Origin: an uncultured virus (IMG/VR IMGVR_UViG_3300008113_000017)
Taxonomy: Duplodnaviria > Heunggongvirae > Uroviricota > Caudoviricetes
Length of the DNA: 64,000 nt
IMG/VR virus record: IMGVR_UViG_3300008113_000017
Direction: 5' to 3' (one strand)
Within the stretch, counting starts at the first letter, position 1. Each line of letters begins with the position of its first letter. The translations under genes and the position numbers were made by a program. Below the pieces are notes generated by a model, which did no database searches, was not told where the DNA came from, and saw nothing but the letters and a program-made list of their open reading frames with translations. Shown piece after piece: positions 1 through 46,443 of the stretch.

Positions 1-2559
1 ATCTGACTTAGTGTTGTCAGGGGTCTCTACTAGGTCGAGCTCTACAGTTAAGTTTCCATTTGAATCTTCTTTAACTGAAGTAACCTTAAATTTTGAATTT
101 CTTGGTAATATAACTTCATCTTCAGCGTATCTAGATAATGCAGACCCCATAGAATATCCGGTTAATTTAGATCCTTTAGGCGAAAGTGCATATGTTATTG
201 ATTTGCCAGTAAGTCGATTTCCGGTGAGTGCCTGTACAGGATTTACAAATAAATCAATCGAGTTTAAATCTGTAGAAGTTGACATAAAGCCAGGGTCAAT
301 AAATTCAGCTCCAGGGACTAAAGCCTTTTTAGCTTTTTCAAAGTCATCTAGTCCCCTACGAGATTCACCAAGTGTAACTACTTTTCCATCACTAAAAAAC
401 TCTCCTCTAAACAATCTAGAAGCTATTAGGGGATTTTTTGAAGTTAAAGAGTCTAGCCCACGGACTACAGATTCTTGATCTTTAGGAACAGGTGTACCAG
501 TCCTTAATGCTTTATTTATAGGTATATAAGCTGCACGAGTGCTATATTTTCTAGCAGCACTTGACTCATCTTTTGTAATAACATCTTTTGAAGATAAGCC
601 TTTAGACAGATCTGCTGGTGGAGTAAATGTAGATTTTCTAGCTTTAAGTTGTCGCCAATCAAAATCTCCGGACTTCATTTTAAAGAAATCGTTGTCAGAT
701 AGGAAATAGTATCCAGCCTGAATTACGTCAAACGTATCTGCATTTTCTTCATCTTCTTCATCAGCATCTTCATCAAAAATAGATTCGTTTAGACTAATAC
801 GATACAGTCCAGTGTTAGAGTCGGATGGATTTCCGGTTACTTGATCAAGAGTAATTCCTGTAAACTCTGCTTCATCACTTCCAAGAACTTCTTTACCGGG
901 TTCTGCATACCTGCTAGTTACTGATCTATTCAAATCCTGAAATCCTAGGGGAAGAGTGTCACTGTCAATAGACACATTAAACTTAGTCTTGTCCCCACGT
1001 TTTAAAGTTTTATTTTCCAGTGTTACTGTTCTGCTACCGTCTGAAGACTCTACAGACTTTCTAGAAGACTCTAATTTTTTATCTTCTTCGGCAGCTTGCT
1101 CACGTAGTTTTTGTCGTAAATCCTCTCTAGCTGCTTGTAATTTTAAAAATTTTGAACTATTTGTATATTCTCTAGTGTCTTCATAAGACACGTAATCATC
1201 AATTTCAGCACCTTCAAAAGGTTTTTTTGGATCAGCATTAAGCCTTTTTTCTAAAGATTCTTTAGTTACAATTGCATATTCCGGAGCTATTCGCTCTGCT
1301 TCAACAGCTTCCCACCCAATATCATCTCCCTCTTGCATCTCGTATTCTTCTTTAGACAATCCATTTTCATCTAATTCAACAGGGTAGTCGTTATCTTTAA
1401 ATTCTTCGGTTCTAAAAATAAATTTATCTTTGTCTTCTTCTTTACCAGTGATGTCAAATAAAGTTACTCCAGTGTACCTAGATGGAAATCTTTCTAGCCT
1501 AGGTTCTTCACCAAAACCAATATCGTCACCGAGATAGTCTGTGAATCCAGTGACTCCCTCAAAATGTTTTTCATAATCATCTAGCCCGGTGCCCGACTCA
1601 TAAGATCTGTCAAGTGGATACCAATCTCCTGGATTAATTTTGTTTCCGGAAGATAGAGTTATAGGAGTGTCTCCAAATACATCTCCCTGTACCTTGTTAA
1701 ATCCAGGTTTTCTAGGTTTAGAAAATTTTCCTTCTTTTTGAGCAAAGCCGTCGTAATCAACGGTGTCGAACTCAGCGGTTCTAAGCATGATTTGACGTTC
1801 AGCTTCTTTAAAAGCTTCACTTGCGTCAATTCCAAGATCTACTTTTTCTTTAGGCTTGTCGCTAAAAGTAGCGGTAAATCTGCCACCCTTTTCCAAAATG
1901 TCGGTGACTAGACCGTTTTCCTCACGAGTCCAACGACTAATGTCTTTTTTAGCGTCTTTCTCTGTAGTAGCATCTACAAACTTACGTTCCGCCGCTGTTT
2001 CATTGAACTTGCCGGCTCTTTCAGATCCAGCTGCTTGTGCAAATCCTTCAGAGTCTTCTGGAAGAAGCTCAGAATCAAAAAATACATCTCTCGGCAAGAT
2101 AGTATCTTGATTTTCAGCAATTTTATCTAGCTTTTCTCTAGGAGCTACATATTTTCCGACTCTTCGAAGTTGAGTCTCATTTCCCGGAGAATCTTGAGAA
2201 TTTACAATTCTTACTGGGACATACTCGACTCCGGCTTTACGAGCCGCGGCTAGTCTATGGTTACCTTCAGTAATAAATGCTTTACCATTTTTAGGGTTGA
2301 GCACTACTATAATTGGCTCTTTAAAGCCGATGCCTTCTTCTAGATCTTTGGCAATGCTGTCTACCGTACTCTGCTCACGAATCTCATTACCTTCAGCTCC
2401 AATTAGAGCTTTGGTATTTACGTACTGAACTACCGATTTTCCATCAGATTTATAATCTTGTAGGTTAGGATTATACTTTTTACTGTATTCAGCATCTACC
2501 TCTGTACTAGGTGTCTGTGAGAACCCACGGTCCCCCTTTTCGGGGGTTACGCTTTTGGG
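1..2559 (-). CDS. C-terminal extension of the giant modular protein (reached by probable -1 frameshift); ParB-like domain ~2200-2440 and ADP-ribosyltransferase domain ~13-590; truncated by window edge
   Basis: Frame read codon by codon is open from 2571 to position 1 and is absent from the ORF track. It has no start codon before the ParB-like domain (FKEPIIVV...ITEGNHRLAAARKAG). ART motifs are YIPINKALR, LFRG, GFMSTS and EDEVILPRNSKFKV. It carries the same linkers as the upstream ORF (GFSQTPS, GFAQAAG, GFAQKEG). Confidence 0.85.
2532..2559 (-). other. Probable programmed -1 ribosomal frameshift signal
   Basis: Minus strand reads TC(C CCA AAA) GCG TAA CCCCC GAAAA GGGGG: an X XXY YYZ heptamer at 2553-2559, a 6-nt spacer, then a 5-bp G:C hairpin at 2532-2546. 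Confidence 0.75.
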
Positions 2560-5500
2560 GAGTTCGCACCTCTACGCTTTAGAGTATCAATAAGTCTTTG
2601 AATCTCGTCAGCAGACTTGCTGTTCAGGTTCGTGATTCCAAGCTTACGCTTCTCTGCAGAAGTCAGACCAAGAGAGTTAGCCAGATCCTTGACACGCTTA
2701 AGTTGTCTAGGAGTTGGCTTACCGGTGTCGACGCCAGCCTTAGGGTTTAGAGCCCTAAGTTGTCCAAGCATTGCACCCATCTGAGCCTTAGTCAAGTTTT
2801 TACTTGATAGGGCATCTTGAATTGCAGTAGCTAGTTCTGGATCGATGCCGTCTCTGTTGCCACCAAGTTCCTTGAGGTAGTCATACTGAGCGTCAGTAGC
2901 TGGCTCACCCATCTTAGGTGATACAACTGCGTTGCCAGGTTCTTGAGAAAAGCCGTCAGAATCATCATTAACATCATCATAATAACCTCGGCTGTTTTCA
3001 GCATCTTCATCAACAAGATCGCTGTTGTAGTAGTCTAGCTTTTCATTAGCAAATGCTAGGGCTTCTTCTTTAGAACCAAAAGTCTGAGAACCTTCGTCAT
3101 ATTGGAATTCTGCATCTTTATCCATGTATTGATACGAGTGATCTACTTCCCACTCACCGTCGCCCTTATACCAGACCTCAATCTGACTGTCAGAGTAAGG
3201 GTCTGTAGTATAACCACCATCGCTGTTTTGACTTAGTTTGTCATCCCTAACTGGAGTGCCTTTTCTGCCAGGTTCTTGGGCGAAACCACCCTGATCTTTC
3301 TTACGGTTTTTCTTATCTAGAATTCTCTGAGCACGATCTACAAAATCACTAAGAGCATATCTAAACTCATCTGATACTCTAGCATCACCAAAGTCCTCAT
3401 AAAGCCTTGCCATTCTATCGATAAACTCTTGCTCAGTACCATTTTCAATAGCTGTTGAAAGTTCTTTCTCTAGATTTGCTTCCGAGAAGTTTTGAGATAG
3501 ATTTGAGTTATAGTCAGCTGCTTCGTTAGCTGCCCACTCAATCGCGTCATCGCGGTCATCAAACTCTTGCCTATCATACGCAGAATCTCCGCTATCAGAA
3601 CCATAAGTAATTCTAGCTTCGTACTTACCATTCTCGTTTGGCTCATTGTCAATGTTGATTTCTGCTCCACCGCTTCTGTAGTCTCCCCAGTAACCATCAT
3701 CTGCAGCTTCTGCAATCTTATCGGCATCTGTTGAATAGTAAATTTCTCTAGCAGTAGCCATTTCATCTTCAACGTCAGATAGATCTAAGTTTCTTAAATC
3801 GTCAGGATCTCTAAGAGCTGCTCGTATTCCAGCACGATCTTCAATTCTCTTAATAACTTGATCTCTCAGGTTATCGAGCTCGTCTGCCAAACTAGAGTCA
3901 CTAGAATTATCTCTTCTAAGTCTAGATACAACATCTTGAAGATCGGAAGCAAACATGTAAGACTGCTCTACAGCCCAGTCTTTACCATATTTTTTATTGT
4001 CTGGATTGTCTGGATCTGACTCTGCTAACATTTCTCTCAAGTTGTCGCCGTCTAACATAAGGAAAGTGTCCTCATTTGCAGCGTCAAGTCTTCTTGCAAG
4101 CTCATCAATTCGCTCACCCTTTAGAGAGTTGTAGTAAGCATCCATCTCACCAGCAACTTCGGCAGGTCCGCTTTCTGTAAAGTCGTCACCAGCACGGTCG
4201 CGGTTGAACTGCTCTTCTCCAGGAATGCCTGGCTCCTGAGCAAAGCCGATAGTCTCTGGACGATCCTTCTTTCTACGAAGCTTGTCGTTTAGAGCATCTA
4301 CTTCAGCACGGTTCATGTTTGGTAGGTTGTCTAGGATGTCCTTGACTTCTTCTGGAGTTAGGTCCTTGGTCACAAGCTTGCTGTTCAATGACTGAAGAGC
4401 ACGGTCGCTTGGCTTGTTAGGGTCGACGCCCGGTTTGAACGGAGCATCACGCATAGGGCCAATAAGTGCACTCATCTGTGCCTTAGTTAGGTTCTTGTTC
4501 GCAAGAGCTTCTGTAATTGCCTGAGCAGTTAGGTCGTCAGCTGGAACTCTTTCATCAGCGTACTCTTGTAGAAGAGCATACTGAGCAGGAGTTGCAGGTT
4601 CCATCTGCTTAGCAGACAAACCTCCAGTTTTTTCCTTGTTTTGCTTCTTATTGCCGTCAGCAATCTGCTTACGTAGCCATTTCTCGGCTGCCTCTGGACT
4701 ATTGAATGATTTACTAGTAGTATTTCCTAGTCCATTTCTATTTTCAGGATTAGCGTATTTAGCAAACCATCTGTTAGATTCTGTACCGTCTTCATTTTTA
4801 TAGACGCCATACCTAACGTCAGATATGTTACCGTTGGCATCTTTATAAACTACGCCTCCTACTTTATCGACAGACTTAAGATCTAAAGCGTTTGGGTCCT
4901 CTTCTAATAGATCGGAACCGGTTCCTGGTTCTTGGGCGAATCCACCGCTCTTATCTTCACGGAAGAAGTCATAGTCTTCACCATTGTTTAGACCAATCGT
5001 ATCAAACCATTCACCAGGTCCAAAGCCTGATTCTTTGTCTGCTTCTAGGAATAGCTTATAAGCTAGTACTTCACTATGGTAGCGACTAGGTTTTTCAATA
5101 GCTCCCTTAATCTCTCTACCGTTGTACCCATTAGCAACTGCCATATCAGCAATTAAATTGTAATAGCTGTATGGATCACTTTCGGCGAGACCATTTAGAT
5201 AATCATCGTTGTAGCTCATAGCATTTTGTACTAGATCGCTAAGTTCTTCATTGTCATAGTCACCAGCAAGTTCAGAAAGTTTTTCCGAATCAAAATAACC
5301 ATCGTCTTCTGCGCCAAGAGCACTTAAAATTTTATTAGCATCTTCTTCGCTCTTTGAGAAAAGATCTTTGTTAATTTTATCTTGCTCGTCCCAGGCATTC
5401 TGTACGTCAGATGCAAGGCCGGCAAGTTCACCATCTTGAGGAAGGTACTTAAATTGCTTAGATCTTGCAGCCCAACCAAATTGAGCTTTTTGTTGTTGAA

Positions 5501-8500
5501 GATCTCGGATTTCATCTCTATTATCAGATTTATCAATTTTACCCTGAAGAATATCTTCAGCTTCTTTGACAGCTCGATTTACTTTATCACGTATTGGCTT
5601 ATTAGCTGCTTTAGGAGTAAAATCAATTCTACCCTTTGGATAGTTTGTCCAAGCATAGTTTTTAGCTGGCTCTTCGCCACCAGGACGTTGAGCAAAGCCT
5701 TCACCTTCAGAGCCAAAACCAATCTCGTTTAGCCAGTGATCATTGTTCTGATCCTCAGCCCAGGTGTTCATTTCTGCGTCAAGAACATAGTCATGATAGT
5801 TATAAGGTTTCTCAATCATACGTTTGAACTCAGATGGGCTTGCATTTATAGCTTCAGCAGCATTCGCAATTTTGTAGAAGTATTCAGCAGGATTTGTACG
5901 AGCTAAATTGTCTAGGTAGTTTTCATTTAGCTCTTTAATTTCCTGAGCAGCTTCGTAGTCTTCATCATCCTCGTCTAGACCGCCGTCTTCAATAAAAGCA
6001 TACTTCTCAACAAGTCTCTTAGCTAGAGCTTTGTTCTTTGCTCTAACTTCTGGGCTTGGTCCGTTTCCAGGTGCTTGACCAAAGCCTCCGTAATCAAGAT
6101 CGGCAGCGTAATCCTCTGCGTCCTGATTTACTTCCATACTGTTGTAGTAATTAAGTTTTTCGTTAGCAAATGCTAGAGCTTCTCCCTTAGTGTCGAAGGT
6201 CTTAGAGCCTTCGTCAAACGGCAACTCTCCTCTAGATTTGTCCATGTGAATGAACTGGTGGTTTACTTCCCACTTACCGTCATTGGTAGGGTTGACTTCA
6301 ATTTGACCTGGCTCACCAAAAGTAGTGCTAAGAGAACCGTCGTCACTCGTAATCAATTTGGAATTGTTTATAGGAGTATATTTTCTGCCAGGTTCTTGAG
6401 CGAAACCTCCGGACTCAAGATCAGCGGCGGCATCTTCTGCATCTGAGAATACCTTGTCACCGTTGTAGTAGTCTAGTTTTTCGTTAGCAAATACAAGAGC
6501 TTGCTTTATAGAATCAAACTTCTGAGAACCTTCGTCAAATGCAAACTCATTTCCAGAGCGTGCCATGTGGTTGTACGCGTGGCTTACTTCCCATTTACCG
6601 TCATCAGTAGGGTTGACTTCAATTTGCTTGTTAGAAGTTGGACTAGTACTGTAACCACGATTGCTAGTTGGCTGTAACACTTCTGGTTTGCCAGTTGCTT
6701 GAGCGAAGCCAGCTGCAGGAGATTCTCCGTTAGCGTCTCTAAGAGCTCGATCAATAGCCTCAACAGCGTCTTGTTTAGCCTTAAGTGGGTCACCAAACCC
6801 TAAGTTAGCTTTATCAATGTCTTCGATTGCTTGTCTAATTTCATCTTCGTAGTCTGGAACAATGTCTACAGGCTTACCATCGAAGGTGACCACAAGGAAA
6901 TTACCGTCAGGATCTCCTTCTACGACTACCTTTAGGCGTCCGTCTGCAGAAGTAAAGTTTCCGCTTCTATCCCAGAGATCAGGATTGTCAGCTGCCTTAC
7001 GGTCAATCTTAGGAGTGTAGCTAATTGAAAGATCTGCACTCTTGCCAACCTCAGCAAGAAGCTTGCCCATCTCGCCTTTGGTTAGGGCCTTGTTAGCAAC
7101 GGCTTCTTCAACCATATCGCGAACGTCGGTTGGAAGTTTTTCACCTTGGTTATCTAAGATACCCTGAAGCTTGTTGTACTGTAGGGAGCTAGCTGGGTCT
7201 TTAGTCCAGGCTGGTGGCTCGTCGCCAGGTTCTTGAGCAAAACCGCCCATCTCGTCTGGAGACTTTCTAGCGTTTCCTTCAAGTTCTGAGAACAGACGTT
7301 CGCCGTCTTCAAGTGCCTTGTCTAGATTATCTGTAGGTTCACCCTGGCCCATAATTTCACCATTACGGTTGTAGGCGATAGGGGTAATCATACCCTTGTC
7401 TTTTTCTAGACGTACAATTCCACCATCTTCTGTTTCTGCAGTAGCAGCAAAGAAAATATCACTATCTGGATATAGAAGGAATTTTCCGCGTTTATTTGAA
7501 GACTCACCAGGCTTTTGATCAAATCCACCGGTTTGCTTCTTTAGGAATTTGTCAACTAAAACACCTACGTCTTTTGCTAGGTCTGCTGAATCGTAGCCCC
7601 AACCAATGTAAGGAAGCTCACCAACCCATTCGCCATCGTAAGATACAGAAATACGAGATAGGTTTGTACCACCAAATCCCATGTCTGGTTCTCCATCTGC
7701 CATTGACTCAAGAGTCAATCTTCCATCTGGAGACTTGTAGGTAGCGTCATTACCGCCTTCAGGATCTCCGAACCAGTGGCTTAGGTTGGCAATGTGAGCC
7801 TCGTCAACTCCACCAGCTTGGCCGGCTGATTGGGAGAATCCTTCGATATCATCGGTTCTTTCACCGTACTTGATATTCGGTCCGCCTCTAAGAAGTTCTT
7901 TAAGATCCGAAACAATTTCTTCTGCTTCTCTTTCAACACCTTCAGGCTCCATGTCTGGGTATCGAGAACTATCGTCAACTAAAACAAAATTCTGTACGTA
8001 GCCAATTGGTTTTCCATCATAACTAACTTCCCAGTCTCCACCTTCTACATAGGCAGAAGCAGCTCCTTTATTGGTTTCATAGTCATAATCACCAGATTTG
8101 TCTACATATTTTATTTCAAGTTTTCCGTCCTTAGACTTCCACTCGTCTCTAAAATCAAAACTACTGTCAAGTTCACCAGAATAGTCTTTGGCTAAGTTAC
8201 GTCGCTTAGGACTGCTATTAAGGTGCTTTGAGATTACATTCTCAATTTCATCAGCATAGTCGTCAATATCCATGAGCTCGATTGGTTGAGAGTATGGTCT
8301 ATCGATGTATCTAACAGGCTGTCCATCTTCTAGATCTATAGTATATTTTTCCCCATCAACAGATACTTCTAGATAAGATGTATCGACTGCAGGATCATCT
8401 GCATAATAGCCAGCATCAGCGTCTCGGACGTAAGTAATCTTAATTCTTCCATCTCTAGAAACCCAGGTACGGTCCTTAAATGCTTCGGCAGACCAGTTGG

Positions 8501-11500
8501 CGTCTTTAAATGCGTCTACTGGAAGCTTATATTTTAGAGGCTCATCTTCTCCAGGCGCTTGAGCAAAACCTTCAATGTCATCTTGACCAGGAAGATCTGC
8601 TAGAGAAATGTCATTTGCAGCCTTTTCTGCTGCACCAATGCTCTTGAAGTTTGATGACGCACCTAGTTCGCCACCATCCTGAGAAATTGGAGTTACGTCC
8701 CAGGTACCATCGCCCTTAGGTGTGTAACGCATCATCAAACCTTCAGAGTTTTTCTTCAATAGGTTTGGACTTGCGTCTTCCCAGCCGTTGGTGTCTGGCA
8801 TACCCTTTAGACGAGTAATGAGATCTGAAGCTTCATCCTTGGTCATCTTTGGAAGACGCTTGCTTAGATCAGCGGCTTCTTTAGCAGGAAGACCCTTAGA
8901 AATTAGACCACGGCGGATAGACGCTAGTTGTCTATCTGAAGGTACGTTGGTGTCAACGGCCTTTCGCATCTCACCAATTACGGCACCAATTTCGCCCTTA
9001 GTTGCTTCTTTGTTTGCAAGAATATCTTGCATAGACTTACGAAGTTCTTCTGGAAGTTTGTCACCCTGCTTTTCTAGGATGTTAGCTACGAATCCACGCT
9101 GGGCATCGGTTGCTGGGTCAGAAGATTTTCCACCCGGTTCTTGACTGAAACCAGGCATTTGATCATAACCTTCAAAGCCATCAACGTCATAGTAATCCCG
9201 ATCATTTGATTTAGCTTGAGCGTTACCAAAAGCTTCGTCAAGCGCACCTATTTTTCCGTCTTCACCTTCACCATAGTTTTTAGGGTCATAGCCATCACTA
9301 AACTCGCGCTCTTTGTCACCACCAAATGGACTTTTAACGAGACTACCACCTACAACATCAACAGTACCGTCGGAATACTGAGTTATCTCAGCTGAACCGG
9401 CGTCACCTTCGTAGAACCAAACACGTTTTCCTGCTGCTTTATCGGATTCAGACGTTATTTCTTTGAAGTCTTTTCCGTAAGCCTTAACAAGATCGTCAAC
9501 GGTATTAATTTCTGGTTCATTGCCAGGTGCTTGATAGAAGCCATCTCTTTCCCAGTCTTCAGGACCCTCTGGTGGCTCTGGTGGATCGTAGTCACTCTCT
9601 CCAGCACCAAATATACCTGCAATATCGTCCATGGAAGAGCCCAAAGGAAGTGACTCATAACTAGTGTCTACATCTTGACTAGGTGGCTCATCCCAGCCTC
9701 CAGGATTGTATTTACCGGCAGTATATTGAGTTAATTCGGCTGCTCCACCAGGATAAATTTCTAGTTCTGCGTACTTGTAGTTATCTTCACTACCTAATGT
9801 TAGAAATATCACACCATCATCATCAGGGAATACATCTCCTGAATACCCGTATTCCTCTGCAAGATTTTTAATAGCAGCTAACTCTTCATCAGAATAAAAA
9901 GAACTCTCAGAAGACCCATTTTCATAGTCGTCATATTTTTTAAGTTGAGCAGCGATTACATCGTGGTACTTAGCGTATTCAGGGTCCTCTAGCAAAGATT
10001 TCATTGCTTCTGCATCTAAATCCTTGAAAGACGTAAATACTTTAGCTTTTAATCCACGGTTGTACTTAATTTGCTCAATTTTGGCCTCGCGAGCCTTTTT
10101 TACATCTGACTTAAGTGGTTCTAAGCCATCTTTTTCACGTTTTTTATTTTTTGGAAATGCAAAGATTCCTTCTATATCATTCTGGGATCTTAAGTTATAA
10201 CCATACTCACTGCTTAAAACACCAACACCAATGGTGTCTCCACTGTAGTACCTTTTACCAGCATTTTCTCCTTCGGTAATATTTATTTCAAAATTACTCG
10301 GGTTAGGATTATTTTCTTGTCCACTCCAAGGCGTATATACAATCTCGTGGCCATAAGCTGACCATTTTCTAATGCCTTTGGCAGCATCTTCGGGGGTGGT
10401 AACTTCTACTGCATCATACTTTTTTGCAAAATCGTCAAGATTAATATTCTCCCCACCAGGTGCTTGATCATAGCCATAAAAATCGCGATTGTCGCGATCC
10501 TCGTCGTATGTGTCTGGCTCATCATCAGAATTATCGTAGTTTTCATAACCCTCATCCATCAGTCCAGCTAAGTCGTCTAAGCTAGAACCGGCTGGAATAC
10601 TATTTCCATCACTTCTAACGTCAGCATCTGCTGGGCTATCCCAGGATGCTGCATAACGCTTTGCAACATAAAAGTTTTCTAGGTCTGCGGATCCATCTGC
10701 ACGTACAATTAGCTCAGCCCATGCGTCTCCAGCGTCATCGCCTTTTACTAGAGATATATATGGTTCTTCTCCTAAATATTCACCTCTAGGTAAGCCGTAA
10801 CCAAACTCATCCATTAATTTTTGAATATCCTCGAGTTCTTTATTTGTCCAGTACGGGCTATCAGCTTCCCCTGCTTCATATGCCTTTGCTTTTTCTAACT
10901 GCTTACTAGCATAATCATGATGTGCCGCATATTCAGGATTGTCGAGTACTGACTGGATCTGCTCAATAGATCCAGTATTAATTCCACGATATGCGCGAAT
11001 TTCAGCTACATCTTTAGGGGATATTCTTTGAGCTTTTGATACGAGCTCTTCCGCATTTGCAATTGCACGATCTTTTAGTTCGGTGCTTTCATATGCTGCG
11101 TTTTTCTTGTTTTCCAGATTTTTTTGTAGTGCTTCTACGTCGCCAAATCGAACAGCTTTTTGTCGATCGTAATATGATTCAAAATTATTGTAGAATTTAG
11201 GATCACCGTATTCAAAAACACCATAGTCGTACTCTTTCTCACCAGGAGCTTGCTCGAAGCCTTCATTATTTTCTAATAGATCCTTAGGAGATAGTTTTTT
11301 ATTTCTGCCAGGTTCTTGAGCGAAGCCCTTAGCTGGCTGCTGTTTGCGTAGACGTGCTTTTGCTTTTGGAGCCTTACCCTTACCAGAGTCATTATCTGCG
11401 GCAAGCTTTTGAAGGTTTGCCCATTCCTGAGCGTAGCCAACAAAATCTCCAAATTCATCTGACAAAGAAAGTACAGGTTTGTTTGAATCATATGAGCCAT

Positions 11501-12572
11501 CAGGACCAGCACCAATAAATTTTGAGCCCGAAGGTGCTTGCTCGCCGGATGGAAGAGTTGAAACAGAGTAGCCGTCTGCAGACGTAAAGGTGCCATCACC
11601 ATTGTCAGTCCAACCAGTTGGAGCAGACTTGCGGTTTGCTAGAAGTTCTTGTAGTGGAATTGCGTAACGTGAGTTTTTAGAGTCTGCCTTAAATGCTGGA
11701 GCTTCTCCAGTTCTAAGAATAGCTTTTAGACCTTCTACCTTAGATGCAGGAACAGAATAGATACCTGATGGAAGATCGGCTCCTCCTCCAGAAATTTCAA
11801 CTTCAATCCTGTCGCTGTCTTGTGGGTTACCAGCAAACTTACCAACGAACGACTTAATCATGTCGCCAATCATGGCAAATATACGAGATCCACCACCCAT
11901 CTCAGCAAATCGACCCTTACGGTCACGACGTTGCAACTTGGCACGTGCAGAACGTGCTGCTGAAGAGTTATTTCCAGCGAATGGGTTTCCGATACCAAAA
12001 GCAGCGGTAATTGCTTGAATCTTAATGTCTGCTGGAACAGAAGCAGTTAGTGCCTCTAGACGTGCAGCAGCGTAGATGCTCTTGCTACTTCTTGGCTGTT
12101 GAACAAATGCCTCAAAGACTGCTTTACGTACAGACTCGTCAGTGATGCGTGGGTCGTAGGAAACCCAAGCAGCATTACGGACGCGACGTGCAGATGCAGT
12201 AATCGGGCCAACGGTTTTTGTTGAGTACGGGTGAGCACTAGGGAGTAGGTCCCTAAACTCTACTACCGGAGCTTTATTGGAAGCCGGACCGTCGATAGCG
12301 TAGTCAACAAAATTGGTTACTTCACGCGCAGCGTGGAAGAAAATGTCTCGAGGGTCTTCGATGTCTAGTTTGCTTGCAATGTAACGATCTGTGTAGTTAA
12401 GAACGTCTTTTAGTGCTACTTGTCTTACCGAGGCAACTAACGCGTTTCTTTCAACAACGTAGTTTATAACGCCTCTCTTAAAGATCTGCTCACTCTCGGT
12501 GACAGTTATTTCTAGATCTTTTTCACTTAAGCTCTCTAGAGCAGCAACTAGGGGATTCAAATTTTCACTCAC
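2547..12572 (-). CDS. Giant acidic modular (polyvalent) probable virion-associated protein, 3341 aa
   Basis: Long ORF with AGGAAGG RBS-like sequence upstream, a QRRDRKGRF motif, about 18 GFxQxPG-type linkers and internally duplicated modules; lies downstream of portal and Dps fusion. Confidence 0.85.
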   Translation of the reverse strand: MSENLNPLVAALESLSEKDLEITVTESEQIFKRGVINYVVERNALVASVRQVALKDVLNYTDRYIASKLDIEDPRDIFFHAAREVTNFVDYAIDGPASNKAPVVEFRDLLPSAHPYSTKTVGPITASARRVRNAAWVSYDPRITDESVRKAVFEAFVQQPRSSKSIYAAARLEALTASVPADIKIQAITAAFGIGNPFAGNNSSAARSARAKLQRRDRKGRFAEMGGGSRIFAMIGDMIKSFVGKFAGNPQDSDRIEVEISGGGADLPSGIYSVPASKVEGLKAILRTGEAPAFKADSKNSRYAIPLQELLANRKSAPTGWTDNGDGTFTSADGYSVSTLPSGEQAPSGSKFIGAGPDGSYDSNKPVLSLSDEFGDFVGYAQEWANLQKLAADNDSGKGKAPKAKARLRKQQPAKGFAQEPGRNKKLSPKDLLENNEGFEQAPGEKEYDYGVFEYGDPKFYNNFESYYDRQKAVRFGDVEALQKNLENKKNAAYESTELKDRAIANAEELVSKAQRISPKDVAEIRAYRGINTGSIEQIQSVLDNPEYAAHHDYASKQLEKAKAYEAGEADSPYWTNKELEDIQKLMDEFGYGLPRGEYLGEEPYISLVKGDDAGDAWAELIVRADGSADLENFYVAKRYAASWDSPADADVRSDGNSIPAGSSLDDLAGLMDEGYENYDNSDDEPDTYDEDRDNRDFYGYDQAPGGENINLDDFAKKYDAVEVTTPEDAAKGIRKWSAYGHEIVYTPWSGQENNPNPSNFEINITEGENAGKRYYSGDTIGVGVLSSEYGYNLRSQNDIEGIFAFPKNKKREKDGLEPLKSDVKKAREAKIEQIKYNRGLKAKVFTSFKDLDAEAMKSLLEDPEYAKYHDVIAAQLKKYDDYENGSSESSFYSDEELAAIKNLAEEYGYSGDVFPDDDGVIFLTLGSEDNYKYAELEIYPGGAAELTQYTAGKYNPGGWDEPPSQDVDTSYESLPLGSSMDDIAGIFGAGESDYDPPEPPEGPEDWERDGFYQAPGNEPEINTVDDLVKAYGKDFKEITSESDKAAGKRVWFYEGDAGSAEITQYSDGTVDVVGGSLVKSPFGGDKEREFSDGYDPKNYGEGEDGKIGALDEAFGNAQAKSNDRDYYDVDGFEGYDQMPGFSQEPGGKSSDPATDAQRGFVANILEKQGDKLPEELRKSMQDILANKEATKGEIGAVIGEMRKAVDTNVPSDRQLASIRRGLISKGLPAKEAADLSKRLPKMTKDEASDLITRLKGMPDTNGWEDASPNLLKKNSEGLMMRYTPKGDGTWDVTPISQDGGELGASSNFKSIGAAEKAANDISLADLPGQDDIEGFAQAPGEDEPLKYKLPVDAFKDANWSAEAFKDRTWVSRDGRIKITYVRDADAGYYADDPAVDTSYLEVSVDGEKYTIDLEDGQPVRYIDRPYSQPIELMDIDDYADEIENVISKHLNSSPKRRNLAKDYSGELDSSFDFRDEWKSKDGKLEIKYVDKSGDYDYETNKGAASAYVEGGDWEVSYDGKPIGYVQNFVLVDDSSRYPDMEPEGVEREAEEIVSDLKELLRGGPNIKYGERTDDIEGFSQSAGQAGGVDEAHIANLSHWFGDPEGGNDATYKSPDGRLTLESMADGEPDMGFGGTNLSRISVSYDGEWVGELPYIGWGYDSADLAKDVGVLVDKFLKKQTGGFDQKPGESSNKRGKFLLYPDSDIFFAATAETEDGGIVRLEKDKGMITPIAYNRNGEIMGQGEPTDNLDKALEDGERLFSELEGNARKSPDEMGGFAQEPGDEPPAWTKDPASSLQYNKLQGILDNQGEKLPTDVRDMVEEAVANKALTKGEMGKLLAEVGKSADLSISYTPKIDRKAADNPDLWDRSGNFTSADGRLKVVVEGDPDGNFLVVTFDGKPVDIVPDYEDEIRQAIEDIDKANLGFGDPLKAKQDAVEAIDRALRDANGESPAAGFAQATGKPEVLQPTSNRGYSTSPTSNKQIEVNPTDDGKWEVSHAYNHMARSGNEFAFDEGSQKFDSIKQALVFANEKLDYYNGDKVFSDAEDAAADLESGGFAQEPGRKYTPINNSKLITSDDGSLSTTFGEPGQIEVNPTNDGKWEVNHQFIHMDKSRGELPFDEGSKTFDTKGEALAFANEKLNYYNSMEVNQDAEDYAADLDYGGFGQAPGNGPSPEVRAKNKALAKRLVEKYAFIEDGGLDEDDEDYEAAQEIKELNENYLDNLARTNPAEYFYKIANAAEAINASPSEFKRMIEKPYNYHDYVLDAEMNTWAEDQNNDHWLNEIGFGSEGEGFAQRPGGEEPAKNYAWTNYPKGRIDFTPKAANKPIRDKVNRAVKEAEDILQGKIDKSDNRDEIRDLQQQKAQFGWAARSKQFKYLPQDGELAGLASDVQNAWDEQDKINKDLFSKSEEDANKILSALGAEDDGYFDSEKLSELAGDYDNEELSDLVQNAMSYNDDYLNGLAESDPYSYYNLIADMAVANGYNGREIKGAIEKPSRYHSEVLAYKLFLEADKESGFGPGEWFDTIGLNNGEDYDFFREDKSGGFAQEPGTGSDLLEEDPNALDLKSVDKVGGVVYKDANGNISDVRYGVYKNEDGTESNRWFAKYANPENRNGLGNTTSKSFNSPEAAEKWLRKQIADGNKKQNKEKTGGLSAKQMEPATPAQYALLQEYADERVPADDLTAQAITEALANKNLTKAQMSALIGPMRDAPFKPGVDPNKPSDRALQSLNSKLVTKDLTPEEVKDILDNLPNMNRAEVDALNDKLRRKKDRPETIGFAQEPGIPGEEQFNRDRAGDDFTESGPAEVAGEMDAYYNSLKGERIDELARRLDAANEDTFLMLDGDNLREMLAESDPDNPDNKKYGKDWAVEQSYMFASDLQDVVSRLRRDNSSDSSLADELDNLRDQVIKRIEDRAGIRAALRDPDDLRNLDLSDVEDEMATAREIYYSTDADKIAEAADDGYWGDYRSGGAEINIDNEPNENGKYEARITYGSDSGDSAYDRQEFDDRDDAIEWAANEAADYNSNLSQNFSEANLEKELSTAIENGTEQEFIDRMARLYEDFGDARVSDEFRYALSDFVDRAQRILDKKNRKKDQGGFAQEPGRKGTPVRDDKLSQNSDGGYTTDPYSDSQIEVWYKGDGEWEVDHSYQYMDKDAEFQYDEGSQTFGSKEEALAFANEKLDYYNSDLVDEDAENSRGYYDDVNDDSDGFSQEPGNAVVSPKMGEPATDAQYDYLKELGGNRDGIDPELATAIQDALSSKNLTKAQMGAMLGQLRALNPKAGVDTGKPTPRQLKRVKDLANSLGLTSAEKRKLGITNLNSKSADEIQRLIDTLKRRGANSPKA

Positions 12573-13790: not shown

Positions 13791-15551
13791 TTACTGTGGT
13801 TCCGCTAGCGGAATTGGGGGAGCCTCCGGGTTTTCCTGGGCCGGAGCTTCTTGGGTTGGAGCTCCAGAAGGCGGAATTGCCTCTGGAGTTGGAGCTGCGG
13901 GAGCAGCGGGAGCAGGAGCAGGGGCACCTGGTTGTGCGCCTTGTAGCATCTGCTCTAAGCCTGGTGGAATTGGAGCAACAGAAGTTGCCTGTGATGCAGC
14001 ACGGGTAGCTTCCATAACTTCTGGAGCGACTGCGTTTAGCATAGCTTCGGTAAGTTCTGGCGTGATCATACCCTTGTCCATAATCATACGTAGAGCAACC
14101 TCTGTTGGACTTGGTGCATCCTGGTCTGAGAATCCGTGAGCACGTCTCCAAGTGTCGTAAGAAACTGCCATCTTCTCAAAGCCGGAGTCTGCATCCATTG
14201 CTCGGTCGTTACGAGTTGCAACTGCTGATGGGTCATACCAAGCAACAACTCTCTCGACTTCAGTGCGCGAGAAGCCATTGGCTAGAAGATATGGACGTAA
14301 GTAAACAACAGTAATCGCGTCTGCAATTAAAAGCATAAGTGGCTCAATGTGAGCCTTGTAAAGTGACTCGTCGATCTGAACCGCGTTTGAATACTTTACG
14401 TTTGCAAGACCAGTAACAATATCCTTAGGAACGTCGAGACCTTGCAGAATACGCTCTAGTACACGGTCAGCACGTTGAACAAGAGTTGCATCGAATGAAC
14501 GCTCAAACTTGAACTGCTTAATCTTGTCACCAAGTTCCGCAGGACCACGAATGATCAGAGGAACAACTGCGGATGCAGAATCCTCGTCACGAATCGGAGT
14601 GGTCATCGCGTCGATTAGCTGGTCTTCAAATTCATCTGCCATCTCTTCTGGAGTTGGTTCAGCGGAAAGACCGTCTGCATCATCGTACGGATAACTAGGG
14701 TCCGGAGTTGCGGCTACGGACAGGCCATCAGGCAGATAGAGCGCACCAGCGTTCAGACGGGAACGCGCCGTTGCACGGAACGTACGGTTTAGCAACAGTA
14801 GTTCTGCGCAAAGATCTAGAAGGCCACGTAAGCTCGAATCAGCTTCTTCAGAAAAACGTGGGTGAGCTCGCCAAATACGTCCTACGAACGCATTTGGTGG
14901 AAGTTTGATTCCCATGCCTTTACCATTTGCTGTTCCTTGTAGCATTTCACGACGGGCAATAACAGAGTACTGTCCTTTGGTGTCAATCTGCAGTTCGTCA
15001 ATTGATCGGATGTCCCAGCTTTCTGGAATTCCAGATCCTTGACGTTCAGGAATTTGTACTAGGTAGCATTCGCCGGTAACAGATAGGTTTAGGGCGGCGT
15101 CACGCAAAAGACCAGCCTGGCCTCCGTATGCGGAGTCTAGACGTTGAATTGCACGTTCGGCTGCAGAAGCTAGACGTGCTTCAATTGCATCTGCGTTACG
15201 AATTGGAACTGGTGCTTCTGCTGGATCAATAATGACCGCAGCGTAAAGACGAATACGAGAAACAACGGAAGCAACGAGTGAGAATGCGTATTTGATTTCA
15301 CCGATCGCGTCGTAGTATTCCCAAGCTTCAGACTGCCACGCAGAAGAAGATGCTAGACGTCGGTTTCTAAATTGCTCGGCTTCGGTTCTGTCGTTCAGTT
15401 TAATCTGAGCAGCGGCAGCAGTAAGTGGACGTGGTTGATTATAACTTACCGAGGTCGCCGGAATGTATCCGTACGGAATTGGTAGAGACGTAGGTGGAAG
15501 TGGCATCGAGGTATTGCGACTTCGAGCTGGTTCACGTCTGAAAACTGCCAT
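13791..15551 (-). CDS. Portal protein (actinophage type)
   Basis: 586 aa; PLTAAA...WQSEAWEYYDAIGEIKYA...SRIRLYAA, LNLSVTGECYL and AVVPLII pattern resembles mycobacteriophage cluster B-type portals; Pro/Ala-rich tail; near terminase. Confidence 0.75.
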   Translation of the reverse strand: MAVFRREPARSRNTSMPLPPTSLPIPYGYIPATSVSYNQPRPLTAAAAQIKLNDRTEAEQFRNRRLASSSAWQSEAWEYYDAIGEIKYAFSLVASVVSRIRLYAAVIIDPAEAPVPIRNADAIEARLASAAERAIQRLDSAYGGQAGLLRDAALNLSVTGECYLVQIPERQGSGIPESWDIRSIDELQIDTKGQYSVIARREMLQGTANGKGMGIKLPPNAFVGRIWRAHPRFSEEADSSLRGLLDLCAELLLLNRTFRATARSRLNAGALYLPDGLSVAATPDPSYPYDDADGLSAEPTPEEMADEFEDQLIDAMTTPIRDEDSASAVVPLIIRGPAELGDKIKQFKFERSFDATLVQRADRVLERILQGLDVPKDIVTGLANVKYSNAVQIDESLYKAHIEPLMLLIADAITVVYLRPYLLANGFSRTEVERVVAWYDPSAVATRNDRAMDADSGFEKMAVSYDTWRRAHGFSDQDAPSPTEVALRMIMDKGMITPELTEAMLNAVAPEVMEATRAASQATSVAPIPPGLEQMLQGAQPGAPAPAPAAPAAPTPEAIPPSGAPTQEAPAQENPEAPPIPLAEPQ

Positions 15552-18750: not shown

Positions 18751-20163
18751 TTATCTAACTTTAAAGATACCTTTTCTGGATCCACCAGCTTCGCTTCCAC
18801 GGGGATTAGGTATCTTTCTACCAGCAACCGATCGGGCTGTAATCTTTCCACCTGTAAATCCCGACGGGGGTTTGATAAGCAAGGCAGTTAGGGCGTGAAC
18901 CAGGGCGTCTACCCTGTCCGGTGATTTGCCTTCGCCAGGTATCCAAGAATACATCTGGCTTTCCAATGATCCGAGATAACCTATGTGGTGAACCCTACCC
19001 TGCTCATAAGCCAATGTGACGGGTTCTGCTCTCAAGGCCTTTCCGTATTTGGAATGGACTTCTAATACTTTTATGTTTGGATCTATTGTGTGGATCGCAT
19101 TCTTCACCAATGCTCCACCTTGGTTCACTTCGGCTACAACAGGGCAACCCCACTTGCGAGCCATCTCTACAACCTTGTTAGCCCAAACATCGGGACTTCC
19201 GTGAACACTTGCGTCTTCCAATACCCAAGCTTGACGCTTGTATAAATCTCTCTCAGCAGTAGACGAAACTACGACAATCCCACATTCATCTCTCGGGTTC
19301 TCAGCAACGCTAGGGTCAACACCAATGATCCGTAATGGAACGCCAAGTGGCATAGCACCTTGACGATACTGCTCAATCAGTTCTTCTGTCCACAAAGCAC
19401 CCTCAACGCTATCTAACATCTCACCATAGATTTCTTGCTGAGCCAAGCGAGTTCCCTCATAAACACCCGTGATAGCGTCAAGATAAGCACTAGATAAGTT
19501 CCCTGAGTTGTCCAATGTAGACCCACGAGTAATAACTACACGACCCGTCTTCGCTTCTTCTATCAACTTGTAAAGCAATGGAACACGCTTCGGTGTTGTA
19601 GTGACCATAATCTTAGGATTAGATCCAAGACGAGTTCCAACACGCAAGTTATCAAAGGCAGTCATACCAGCTGCGTCTGGTGTCTGTCGCCAAGCAGCGA
19701 TCTCATCTCCCCAAGCGTGAGTAAATTGTGGACCACGAAGCGAGTCTGGTTCATCTGCCGTGAAGCAAGTAGCAACATTTCCGTTAGGCCAAGTTAGTCT
19801 TCGCTTGGATGGTTCATACAAAGGTCTTTCACTAGGGGGAGTCACATTCATAATCCCCGACTCACCTTCTACGATTACATCTCTAACATCGGCAGCCGTT
19901 CTTGCGACTAATGCAAAGCGACGCTGTCCCGTAGTTGTATGCTTCGCTTCTTCACGAACCCATTCAGCAGCAGTTCTAGTCTTACCAGCACCACGACCAG
20001 CAATGTAAGCCCAAATGTTCCAATCACCAGCCGGGGTTTGCTGTTCAGGGCGACCCCAAGCAGACCAATCCCACATAAGCGTTTCCGGATCCATACCAGC
20101 CAATACTCTTGCTTGTTCTTCCGGAGATAGCAAAGCTATCTGTTCCATTAGGGACTTAGCCAT
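18751..20163 (-). CDS. terL: Terminase large subunit
   Basis: Walker A AGRGAGKT, LRGPQF, Walker B AWGDE, TTTP motif, nuclease IIGVDP...SPDRVDA. Confidence 0.95.
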   Translation of the reverse strand: MAKSLMEQIALLSPEEQARVLAGMDPETLMWDWSAWGRPEQQTPAGDWNIWAYIAGRGAGKTRTAAEWVREEAKHTTTGQRRFALVARTAADVRDVIVEGESGIMNVTPPSERPLYEPSKRRLTWPNGNVATCFTADEPDSLRGPQFTHAWGDEIAAWRQTPDAAGMTAFDNLRVGTRLGSNPKIMVTTTPKRVPLLYKLIEEAKTGRVVITRGSTLDNSGNLSSAYLDAITGVYEGTRLAQQEIYGEMLDSVEGALWTEELIEQYRQGAMPLGVPLRIIGVDPSVAENPRDECGIVVVSSTAERDLYKRQAWVLEDASVHGSPDVWANKVVEMARKWGCPVVAEVNQGGALVKNAIHTIDPNIKVLEVHSKYGKALRAEPVTLAYEQGRVHHIGYLGSLESQMYSWIPGEGKSPDRVDALVHALTALLIKPPSGFTGGKITARSVAGRKIPNPRGSEAGGSRKGIFKVR

Positions 20164-46314: not shown

Positions 46315-46443
46315 GATTTTTCCTTTCGTTAGGCTACTAGAAGTTTATAGATAGTTCTAAGTTTCCGCAAGTCCACCAGATCGACAACCGAGCTAATTTT
46401 CACTAGCTCGATTGCCGACTTGGTTTTCTAGGGATAGGACAAC

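What the first reader, a model, noticed from the sequence alone, without database searches (positions are those of the whole stretch)
1730..11330. About 21 G-[FY]-x-Q-x-P-G-type linkers divide the giant protein into cargo modules: a candidate phage polyprotein
Seen: 18 copies before the frameshift (GFAQEPG x6, GFSQEPG x2, GFEQAPG, GYDQAPG, GFYQAPG, GYDQMPG, GFAQAPG, GFSQSAG, GFDQKPG, GFAQATG, GFGQAPG, GFAQRPG) and 3 after it. They are usually preceded by acidic stretches and sit at the borders of the duplicated modules. The invariant Gln with an aromatic residue two positions before it recalls Gln-specific viral polyprotein protease sites. Known: phage polyvalent proteins string together ART, ParB and other domains. 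Inference: this is a cleavage or docking code that releases about 20 separate proteins in the head or on injection. The DNA for the linker (CCAGGTTCTTGAGC-like) could also act as microhomology for module shuffling.
Basis: partly seen in the sequence, partly recalled or inferred. Interest (0 to 1): 0.8.

Follow-up and report, generated by a model that had tools for sequence, protein, structure and literature searches.

The report
Phage cargo polyprotein with repeated linker code
A giant phage head-region gene strings about 25 protein modules together with one short repeated linker and ends, after a programmed frameshift, in its own protease domains, so it looks like a self-cutting polyprotein of the kind known from RNA viruses.

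Summary
There are 18 G-[FY]-x-Q-x-x-G copies in the 3341-aa ORF (2547-12572, minus strand) and 3 more after the frame change, against 0.07 expected by shuffling. None occur elsewhere in the window.

The motifs lie in predicted coil between folded units. Blocks of homology with relatives end at them, and modules are gained, lost or swapped between them.

The "frameshift" is a conserved programmed -1 site: C_CCA_AAA, a 6-nt spacer holding the stop, and a CCCCC-N5-GGGGG hairpin. It occurs in 8 distinct related loci.

DNA of the same phage beyond the window shows that the -1 frame adds ParB-like, ADP-ribosyltransferase and two ArdC-N + zincin MPTase modules. Four more motifs separate these.

Across diverged relatives the core is G-[FL]-x-Q. 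All 10 motif-array proteins whose downstream part is known carry two MPTase domains. Of 14 records with motif-less giant homologs, 12 have none and 2 have one distant MPTase.

Best reading (about 0.5): these are processing sites of the protein's own MPTase, which the frameshift supplies in minor amounts, as in gag-pol. Cleavage itself is not shown. No 3C-like Gln-specific protease was found, and the prohead protease is a weaker candidate.

This is a new variant of the known polyvalent proteins.

The parts
2547..12572 (-). ORF1 of the giant gene: 3341 aa, GTG start, 18 linker motifs and about 17 modules.
11553..12572 (-). Conserved N-terminal domain (aa 1-340, motif RRDRKGRFAEMGGG). It is shared by about 79 loci encoding giant proteins beside portal genes. 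Its fold is unassigned.
11307..11327 (-). Linker motif GFAQEPG (aa 416).
11241..11261 (-). Linker motif GFEQAPG (aa 438). It lies 15 aa after the previous motif.
10455..10475 (-). Linker motif GYDQAPG (aa 700).
9522..9542 (-). Linker motif GFYQAPG (aa 1011).
9132..9170 (-). Tandem linker motifs GYDQMPG and GFSQEPG sharing one Gly (aa 1135-1147).
8550..8570 (-). Linker motif GFAQAPG (aa 1335).
7821..7841 (-). Linker motif GFSQSAG (aa 1578). In the model it lies in coil with pLDDT below 50.
7506..7526 (-). Linker motif GFDQKPG (aa 1683). In the model it lies in coil with pLDDT below 50.
7224..7244 (-). Linker motif GFAQEPG (aa 1777). In the model it lies in coil with pLDDT below 50.
6690..6710 (-). 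Linker motif GFAQATG (aa 1955). In the model it lies in coil with pLDDT below 50.
6387..6407 (-). Linker motif GFAQEPG (aa 2056). In the model it lies in coil with pLDDT below 50.
6066..6086 (-). Linker motif GFGQAPG (aa 2163). In the model it lies in coil with pLDDT below 50.
5679..5699 (-). Linker motif GFAQRPG (aa 2292). In the model it lies in coil with pLDDT below 50.
4923..4943 (-). Linker motif GFAQEPG (aa 2544). In the model it lies in coil with pLDDT below 50.
4227..4247 (-). Linker motif GFAQEPG (aa 2776).
3267..3287 (-). Linker motif GFAQEPG (aa 3096).
2934..2954 (-). Linker motif GFSQEPG (aa 3207).
2553..2559 (-). Candidate -1 slippery heptamer C_CCA_AAA, read in the ORF1 frame as TC|C CCA AAA.
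2547..2549 (-). ORF1 stop codon TAA. It lies inside the 6-nt spacer GCGTAA.
2532..2546 (-). Hairpin CCCCC-GAAAA-GGGGG, 6 nt after the heptamer. In 8 distinct related loci the stem is conserved and the loop varies.
1..2571 (-). In-window part of ORF2 (-1 frame, open from 2571). Its first ATG/GTG/TTG comes only at 2304, inside the ParB-like domain. It runs off the window start. The whole ORF2 is 1779 aa in the same phage (L003).
2506..2526 (-). Linker motif GFSQTPS, 9 codons after the shift site in the -1 frame.
2185..2430 (-). ParB-like nuclease/partition domain (PHROGs ParB families, best E 6e-8).
2026..2046 (-). Linker motif GFAQAAG.
1729..1749 (-). Linker motif GFAQKEG.
34..585 (-). ADP-ribosyltransferase domain (PF03496, E 5.9e-11; R...STS...ExE visible in the sequence).
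13791..15551 (-). Portal protein gene (context).
18751..20163 (-). Large terminase gene (context).

Best explanation
The gene is a virion-associated polyvalent 'cargo polyprotein' of an uncultured, actinophage-like phage. ORF1 (3341 aa) has a conserved N-terminal anchor domain followed by about 17 mostly unknown modules.

A programmed -1 ribosomal frameshift at C_CCA_AAA (stop in the spacer, GC hairpin 6 nt downstream) lets a minority of ribosomes read on into ORF2 (1779 aa). ORF2 holds ParB-like, unknown, ADP-ribosyltransferase and unknown modules, then two ArdC-N + MPTase-PolyVal zincin modules.

Every module border carries the linker G-[FL/Y]-x-Q-x-[PA]-G in an unstructured stretch.

Inference: these linkers are the processing sites of the protein's own MPTase. 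The MPTase acts on its own chain and on the protease-less ORF1 product, in the head or after ejection, and frees about 25 separate units, in the manner of gag/gag-pol. Zincins usually select a hydrophobic P1' residue (recalled general knowledge). The scissile bond may therefore be G|F rather than after Gln.

Shown: the motif array, its linker position, module exchange at the motif, the frameshift signal and its conservation, intact HExxH...E motifs, and co-occurrence with the MPTase.

Inferred: packaging in the head, the frameshift itself, and the cleavage.
For: 1. Array and position.
- 18 + 3 motifs in the window and 4 more in ORF2 beyond it, against 0.07 expected.
- AlphaFold model of aa 1578-2775: all 8 motif sites lie in coil segments with pLDDT below 50, between units at pLDDT 70-84.

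2. Module exchange.
- Module maps of the window phage, P0004 and P0005 differ by whole inter-motif units. For example, the ART module is inserted between two motifs.
- 227 of 560 internal BLAST block ends lie within 10 aa of a motif. Random placement gives a mean of 70.9 and a maximum of 98 in 1000 trials.

3. Peptide-level selection.
- Gly and Phe codons vary at the motif.
- In diverged giants the core G-[FL]-x-Q is kept while the flanks differ by clade: GFNQGER, GF[DA]QxAG, GLDQDxP, GLGQ[DE]xP.
- More distant ParB-ART-ArdC proteins have [DS]-L-[DN]-Q at each junction.

4. Protease.
- ORF2 ends in two ArdC-N + MPTase-PolyVal modules (PF18818, E 1e-16 and 4e-27), with HELAH/HELVH and the downstream EExxAE.
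- A motif stands directly before each of them.

5. Co-occurrence.
- 10 of 10 motif-array proteins or records with known downstream sequence have two MPTase domains.
- 12 of 14 records with motif-less giant homologs have none.

6. Frameshift.
- Heptamer, 6-nt spacer and hairpin are present.
- The -1 frame has 89 codons without a start codon, and these hold the first half of the ParB-like domain.
- The same signal occurs in 8 distinct polyvalent loci with varying loop sequence. In each, the -1 frame opens with a linker motif.
- C_CCA_AAG is reported as highly shift-prone in E. coli (PMC5009743, passages read).

7. Prior proposal.
- Iyer et al. 2017 proposed that the MPTase cuts polyvalent proteins into units (PMC5512222, passages read).
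Against: - No cleavage product has been seen. All relatives are uncultured, and the nearest GenBank phages have only ArdC modules at 36% identity or less.
- Two motif-less giants (L021/G007, L028/G008) carry one MPTase domain, 35-38% identical to the window's, with no enrichment of the motif. An MPTase therefore does not imply the motif.
- ArdC of plasmid R388 has no known substrate, and its catalytic Glu is dispensable for anti-restriction (PMC7213743, passages read). Phage N4 virion RNA polymerase carries an MPTase yet is packaged uncut (PMC5512222).
- The co-occurrence counts are not phylogenetically independent, and many records are fragments (17-88% complete).
- The structure model rests on 7 sequences (mean pLDDT 54), and 43% of its residues are below pLDDT 50.
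- Motif-array proteins P0133 and P0135-P0137 have no MPTase within the protein, and their context could not be seen.
Confidence: 0.5

Rival explanations
1. The motif is the site of the phage's prohead (capsid maturation) protease, which would trim the giant protein inside the procapsid. T4 gp21 and phiKZ gp175 trim internal head proteins at short motifs in this way (recalled).
For: The gene lies between the portal and a 1584-aa protein with a head-maturation-protease region (PHROGs 18402, E 1e-58), followed by the major capsid protein. Short recurring cleavage motifs in head-internal proteins are an established pattern (recalled).
Against: The protease/scaffold protein P0006 and the capsid protein P0007 contain no copy of the motif, although such proteases normally also cut scaffold or capsid propeptides. 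The motif-less phage DSL-LC01 has a 59%-identical protease. That is as close as the protease of the motif-bearing L091 phage (52%). The motif therefore does not follow this protease.
Confidence: 0.12
2. The linkers are not cut. The motif is a conserved flexible joint. It could be a repeated docking peptide for a head or ejection component. It could also be kept because the shared linker, at DNA and peptide level, lets modules be exchanged in frame by recombination.
For: Module gain, loss and swap occur at the motifs. Short 13-21-aa inter-motif remnants and one tandem motif look like recombination scars. Codon choice at the motif is biased: GGC at position 1 in 12 of 24 sites against 19% background (p = 0.001), also in the P0005 phage in 14 of 21 sites; CAA in 21 of 24 and CCT in 15 of 18 in the window phage. 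N4 virion RNA polymerase shows that a 3500-aa protein with an MPTase can be packaged uncut (PMC5512222).
Against: Synonymous codons do vary. Across clades only the peptide core G-[FL]-x-Q is kept, which a purely DNA-level role does not explain. No partner is known. The tie to a protease subfamily (10 of 10) is unexplained under this reading.
Confidence: 0.25
3. One reading: a Gln-specific, 3C-like (chymotrypsin-fold) viral protease cuts after the invariant Gln.
For: Gln is invariant, with an aromatic or Leu residue two positions before it, in all 65 pooled sites.
Against: Pfam and PHROGs scans of every inter-motif segment, of ORF2 and of the downstream genes found no such protease. A PHROGs scan of 22 other window ORFs named none of that kind either; its only peptidase-type match was an endolysin/metallo-endopeptidase ORF at 60576-61067.
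Confidence: 0.05

Closest known systems
Phage polyvalent proteins (Iyer, Burroughs, Anand, de Souza, Aravind 2017; PMC5512222)
   Same: Many effector-type domains in one polypeptide (ParB-like, ART, ArdC-N, MPTase-PolyVal). Encoded beside portal/terminase genes. The MPTase was proposed there to cut the protein into units.
   Different: That paper describes 2-15 domains and no linker motif ('linker' occurs 0 times). Here about 25 units are separated by one conserved G-[FL]-x-Q linker, the total length is about 5100 aa, and the protease-bearing part is attached by a conserved -1 frameshift. Most modules match no Pfam or PHROGs family.
Retroviral gag / gag-pol (recalled)
   Same: An abundant protease-less polyprotein and a minor frameshift-extended form that carries the protease. 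Short conserved sites lie between units.
   Different: This is a dsDNA tailed phage with a zincin rather than an aspartic protease. The cargo modules are presumed effectors rather than capsid parts. Processing is not shown.
-1 frameshift extensions of phage capsid and tail proteins (Ig-like domains; reviewed in PMC5009743)
   Same: The same cassette, CCCAAAAGCNTAR + CCCCC, is found in other viral contigs. There the -1 frame adds an extension of about 90 aa that I read as Ig-like, from its sequence alone, without a family search, to a protein of about 290-330 aa.
   Different: Here it joins a 3341-aa polyprotein to a 1779-aa enzyme-rich extension.
ArdC of plasmid R388 (PMC7213743)
   Same: An ArdC-N ssDNA-binding domain plus a gluzincin MPTase with HExxH...E, present twice at the C-terminus of ORF2.
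   Different: ArdC is a stand-alone 297-aa protein with no known substrate. Here the module is the end of a polyprotein and is preceded by the linker motif.

Membership tests
Phage polyvalent proteins (Iyer et al. 2017) | Several distinct effector or enzyme domains in one polypeptide | tested here: met
   ParB-like (PHROGs), ART PF03496, 2x ArdC-N PF08401 and 2x MPTase PF18818, plus about 17 unassigned modules.
Phage polyvalent proteins (Iyer et al. 2017) | Encoded among virion/late genes of a phage with a portal-terminase system | tested here: met
   Terminase and portal lie upstream. Protease/scaffold and major capsid protein lie downstream in the same phage. The same synteny holds in DSL-LC01, L091 and L092.
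Phage polyvalent proteins (Iyer et al. 2017) | Packaged in the virion and delivered into the host | not testable with these tools
   Inferred from gene position only.
MuF / SPP1 gp7 head proteins | N-terminal MuF domain (Pfam Phage_Mu_F) | tested here: not met
   No Pfam family at E <= 0.1 and no PHROGs family at E <= 0.01 for aa 1-415.
MuF / SPP1 gp7 head proteins | MuF-like fold of the N-terminal domain | tested here: inconclusive
   The model (pLDDT 78.6) has no Foldseek match at E <= 0.001 in the PDB or BFVD. The best VIA Z of 6.3 is to generic helical chains.
Programmed -1 ribosomal frameshift site | X_XXY_YYZ heptamer in the zero frame | tested here: met
   C_CCA_AAA at 2553-2559, read as TC|C CCA AAA.
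Programmed -1 ribosomal frameshift site | Stimulatory structure 5-9 nt downstream | tested here: met
   A 5-bp G/C hairpin lies 6 nt after the heptamer and is part of the minimum-energy fold. The z-score of the 96-nt stretch is only -1.7.
Programmed -1 ribosomal frameshift site | The -1 ORF has no start of its own and continues a coding domain | tested here: met
   89 codons are open before the first ATG/GTG/TTG, and the ParB-like match begins within them.
Programmed -1 ribosomal frameshift site | Conservation of the signal in diverged relatives | tested here: met
   8 distinct polyvalent junctions have the same heptamer, spacer and stem, with 7 different loop sequences. The GGGGG arm was not part of the search pattern.
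Programmed -1 ribosomal frameshift site | Frameshift product observed | not testable with these tools
   No protein data.
Viral polyprotein cut by a 3C-like Gln-specific protease | Chymotrypsin-fold protease encoded by the virus | tested here: not met
   None found in Pfam or PHROGs scans of all segments and neighbours.
Viral polyprotein cut by a 3C-like Gln-specific protease | Cleavage after a conserved Gln | not testable with these tools
   Gln is invariant, but the scissile bond is unknown.
Substrates of the prohead protease | The same motif in scaffold or capsid propeptides of the phage | tested here: not met
   0 copies in P0006 (1584 aa) and P0007 (598 aa).

The most novel reading that the evidence does not exclude
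A dsDNA tailed phage uses a gag-pol-like strategy. A polyprotein of about 5100 aa and about 25 units is packed in the head. Its G-[FL]-x-Q linkers are cut by ArdC-type MPTase zincins, which a conserved -1 frameshift supplies in small amounts. This would give the first substrate motif for the MPTase-PolyVal/ArdC protease family and a general 'cleavage code' for polyvalent proteins.
Probability: 0.45. Interest if true: 0.85.

Novelty: new variant of a known kind. Interest (0 to 1): 0.72.

Why it matters
Polyvalent proteins are thought to be the opening move of many phages and plasmids against host defences. How a many-domain protein is turned into working units is unknown, and the ArdC-type metallopeptidase has no known substrate (PMC7213743).

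This locus offers three things:
- A concrete, testable site (G-[FL]-x-Q in about 25 linkers) next to its presumed protease.
- A natural stoichiometry control, the -1 frameshift.
- A set of about 20 unknown modules already cut out by evolution, which can be tested one by one for anti-defence activity.

The linker also explains how such genes exchange modules in frame.

Tried and rejected
- Whole-genome look-up: no genome is held for this window. I used a 92.7-kb virus record of the same phage (G001) and the IMG/VR contig L003 instead.
- Complex prediction of the last ArdC-N+MPTase module + Zn with a 42-aa linker peptide: no answer (score 0.02, mark 0.32). This is not evidence either way.
- N-terminal domain: no hit in a PDB sequence profile search, the protein atlas, Foldseek against the PDB and BFVD or VIA wide (best Z 6.3, generic helices). 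Its role as head or portal anchor remains an inference from position and conservation.
- Metagenome scan with the last ORF1 module found only the window's own phage. The DNA behind P0004 was not found, so its frameshift site could not be checked.
- Search for another repeated linker in 35 motif-less giant homologs (36 ORFs scanned, including the window's own copy): none comparable.
- Earlier-findings look-up: nothing on record.
- Literature: searches 'polyvalent protein/MuF/phage', 'ArdC/metalloprotease/cleavage', 'MPTase/polyvalent/processing/virion' and 'DSL-LC01' turned up no description of a linker or cleavage motif in polyvalent proteins. For the DSL-LC01 paper I saw only the search listing. 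The phage A2 frameshift paper (PMC355979) is not held; that A2 uses CCCAAAA is only my recollection.
- Considered and dropped without a test: Gln as a transglutaminase or ADP-ribosylation target. No transglutaminase was found, and L091/L092 have the motif but no ART.

Full report
**The observation**

Window 2547-12572 (minus strand) is one open frame of 3341 codons. Three more follow in the next frame, at 2506-2526, 2026-2046 and 1729-1749.

- Shuffling the protein 2000 times gives a mean of 0.068 copies, maximum 2.
- No other frame of the 64-kb window has a copy.
- A 92.7-kb record of the same phage (100% identical over 57 kb) has only GYAQYGG and one antisense hit outside the gene.
- Pooled over 65 sites from this phage and two relatives, the motif is G(65)-F(63)/Y(2)-A(38)-Q(65)-x-P(38)/A(19)-G(61). 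D/E stands at position -3 in 36 sites. There is no conservation further out.

**Setting**

- Upstream on the same strand lie the large terminase (18751-20163) and the portal (13791-15551).
- The nearest GenBank phage is the metagenome-assembled Actinomycetia phage DSL-LC01 (69% DNA identity over the portal and terminase genes). It has a syntenic 3289-aa gene followed by capsid maturation protease genes and the capsid gene.
- An IMG/VR contig identical to the window (L003) shows what lies beyond the window start:
  - the second frame runs to 1779 aa;
  - next comes a 1584-aa protein with a head-maturation-protease region;
  - then a 598-aa major capsid protein.

The giant gene therefore sits in the head-morphogenesis block. 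This is the place where Iyer et al. 2017 find phage polyvalent proteins (PMC5512222, passages read).

**What the modules are**

- Of 20 inter-motif segments, Pfam and PHROGs recognise only a ParB-like domain and an ADP-ribosyltransferase, plus weak hints: DUF2188, DpnD/PcfM and DUF3072, all below cut-off.
- ORF2 beyond the window ends in two ArdC-N + MPTase-PolyVal modules (PF08401 and PF18818, both above cut-off). Both keep HExxH and the downstream acidic motif.
- Four more motifs (GFAQTPG, GFAQLGG, GFAQTLP, GFAQKPG) separate the ORF2 units. One stands directly before each ArdC module.

**Are the motifs linkers?**

- An AlphaFold model of aa 1578-2775 was built on 7 sequences (mean pLDDT 54). 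All 8 motif sites in that stretch fall in coil segments below pLDDT 50, between units at 70-84. 43% of all residues are below 50, so this is supportive rather than strong.
- Splitting the window protein, P0004 (3220 aa) and P0005 (4795 aa) at the motifs and clustering the pieces gives module strings that differ by whole units:
  - ...B B D D A H B A in the window phage;
  - ...M B D N O A H I A in P0004;
  - ...M B (98) D N O A H I B A K L E E in P0005.

  The ART unit is present only in the window phage, between two motifs.
- Over nine proteins, 227 of 560 internal BLAST block ends lie within 10 aa of a motif. Random placement gives a mean of 70.9 and at most 98 in 1000 trials.

**How wide is it?**

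- The N-terminal 340 aa are conserved at 30-44% identity in 79 IMG/VR loci. In 37 of these the fetched ORF is 2000 aa or longer, often cut by the end of the fetched DNA.
- Among them, the motif array occurs only in the window phage and the P0005 phage. The others show no comparable repeated linker.
- A full HMMER search of 1.84 billion representatives with aa 1578-2775 found only 29 proteins.
- Among these are new giants with the array in other flavours:
  - P0128, 4167 aa: GFNQGER;
  - P0129 and P0130: GF[DA]QxAG;
  - P0133: G[LF]DQDxP;
  - P0134: G[LF]DQ[AK][PA]G;
  - P0135-P0137: GLGQ[DE]xP.
- The edges of the shared module in these proteins coincide with motif positions.
- In ParB-ART-ArdC proteins whose MPTase module is 46-59% identical to the window's, the junction before the last ArdC module reads GFDQ, GLDQ, SLDQ or SLNQ. 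All junctions of, for example, P0038 read DLDQ.

The conserved core is thus G/S/D-[FL]-x-Q, with clade-specific residues after the Gln. This is the pattern seen for protease sites that co-evolve with their enzyme (general knowledge).

**The link to the MPTase**

- P0128, P0129 and P0130 each end in two ArdC-N+MPTase modules.
- The P0005 contig and five further contigs with motif arrays have two each.
- With the window phage, that makes 10 of 10.
- Of 14 records holding motif-less giant homologs, 12 have no PF18818 match. One of these is a complete genome; the others are 37-88% complete.
- The other two, L021 and L028, are counter-cases. Each has one MPTase inside the giant ORF, 35-38% identical to the window's, with no motif enrichment and no phi-x-Q before the module.

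The motif therefore tracks one MPTase subfamily, not MPTase as such. These counts are not phylogenetically independent.

**The prohead protease does not track the motif**

- DSL-LC01 (0 motifs) has a protease 59% identical to the window phage's. L091 (7-9 motifs) has one 52% identical.
- The window phage's protease/scaffold and capsid proteins have no motif.

**The frameshift**

- ORF1 ends ...TCC CCA AAA GCG TAA. The heptamer C_CCA_AAA (2553-2559) is followed by a 6-nt spacer that contains the stop, then CCCCC-GAAAA-GGGGG (2532-2546).
- The -1 frame is open from 2571. It has no ATG/GTG/TTG until 2304, and it encodes the first half of the ParB-like domain in that stretch.
- After a -1 slip the product reads ...SPK-SVTPEKGDRGFSQTPS..., so a linker motif comes 9 codons after the site.
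- P0004 ends with the same ...ANSPKA.
- In the diverged P0134 clade (L091, L092) ORF1 (1733-1815 aa) ends ...NPKA*. It has the same heptamer, a GCCTAG spacer and CCCCC-N5-GGGGG. The -1 frame reads ...GLDQDAP... and then two ArdC/MPTase modules.
- A collection scan for CCCAAAAGCNTARCCCCC found 25 stretches:
  - 8 distinct junctions are of this polyvalent kind, all with the GGGGG arm, which was not in the pattern, and with 7 different loops;
  - most of the rest are proteins of 290-330 aa to which the -1 frame adds about 90 aa beginning SV[TA]PT.VTLNKTTL. I read this extension as Ig-like from its sequence alone, without a family search. It is a known kind of phage frameshift (PMC5009743, passages read).
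- P0005 and P0128-P0130 have the two parts fused in frame.

I rate a programmed -1 frameshift as likely (about 0.8). The product itself is not shown.

**Mechanism proposed**

- Shown: anatomy, linker position, module exchange, the frameshift signal, intact zincin motifs, and co-occurrence.
- Inferred:
  - the protein is packed in the head;
  - a minority of chains carry the MPTases;
  - the MPTases cut the G-[FL]-x-Q linkers and so release the units.
- Iyer et al. proposed such processing in general, but named no site.
- Arguments against:
  - ArdC has no known substrate (PMC7213743);
  - N4 virion polymerase is not cut (PMC5512222);
  - the two counter-cases above.

**DNA-level role**

- Codons at the motif vary. 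G1: GGC 12, GGT 6, GGA 5, GGG 1. F: TTT 13, TTC 9.
- They are also biased: GGC p = 0.001, CAA 21 of 24 p = 0.003, CCT 15 of 18 p = 0.001. GGC is also biased in the P0005 phage.
- Short remnants of 13-21 aa between two motifs, and one tandem motif, look like scars of unit loss.

The linker probably also serves as an in-frame exchange point. This is compatible with either reading.

**Verdict**

This is a new variant of polyvalent proteins with a candidate cleavage code and a gag-pol-like frameshift. It is unproven biochemically but directly testable.

Noticed in passing
Loci L104-L108, L110, L115-L117, L120, L121 (viral contigs); compare window 2532-2559: The same cassette, CCCAAAAGCGTAR + CCCCC, ends a 290-330-aa ORF (...SPKA*). 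The -1 frame then adds about 90 aa beginning SV[TA]PT.VTLNKTTL, which I read as Ig-like from its sequence alone, without a family search. The frameshift module itself seems to be shared between unrelated phage genes.
   Followed up: partly
Loci L099 and L109: The same heptamer and stop, with a CCCCC-N9-GGGGG hairpin, end a 409-466-aa ORF. The -1 frame adds 54 aa (SVTPG.DGGFDPAG...). The gene was not identified.
   Followed up: no
window 12663-13781 (-): A 372-aa ORF lies between the portal and the giant gene. Its first 148 aa match PHROGs 3636 ('DNA binding protein', E 2e-24). Its role beside the cargo gene is unknown.
   Followed up: no
window 44464-47469 (-): A 616-aa ORF with no PHROGs match lies beside a 341-aa AAA-type ATPase ORF (PHROGs 16448, 'ATPase'; PHROGs 249, 'porphyrin biosynthesis'). 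DSL-LC01 annotates a 'cobalamin biosynthesis protein' beside an 'AAA family ATPase' at the matching place.
   Followed up: no
window 11262-11306, 9132-9170; L003 12332-12370: Very short inter-motif pieces (15 aa, 0 aa, 13 aa) occur. A 21-aa piece is conserved between P0004 and P0005. They are either spacer peptides or scars of lost modules.
   Followed up: partly
L021 and L028 (giant ORFs of 3116 and 3283 aa): These giant homologs have one C-terminal ArdC-N/MPTase (HELTHSTGH) but no G-[FL]-x-Q array. If their MPTase processes them, it must use another site.
   Followed up: partly
window 60576-61067 (+) and 50291-51091 (-): A peptidase/endolysin-like ORF (PHROGs 6700 and 7767) and a second endolysin-like ORF lie far from the head genes. 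Neither contains the motif.
   Followed up: no
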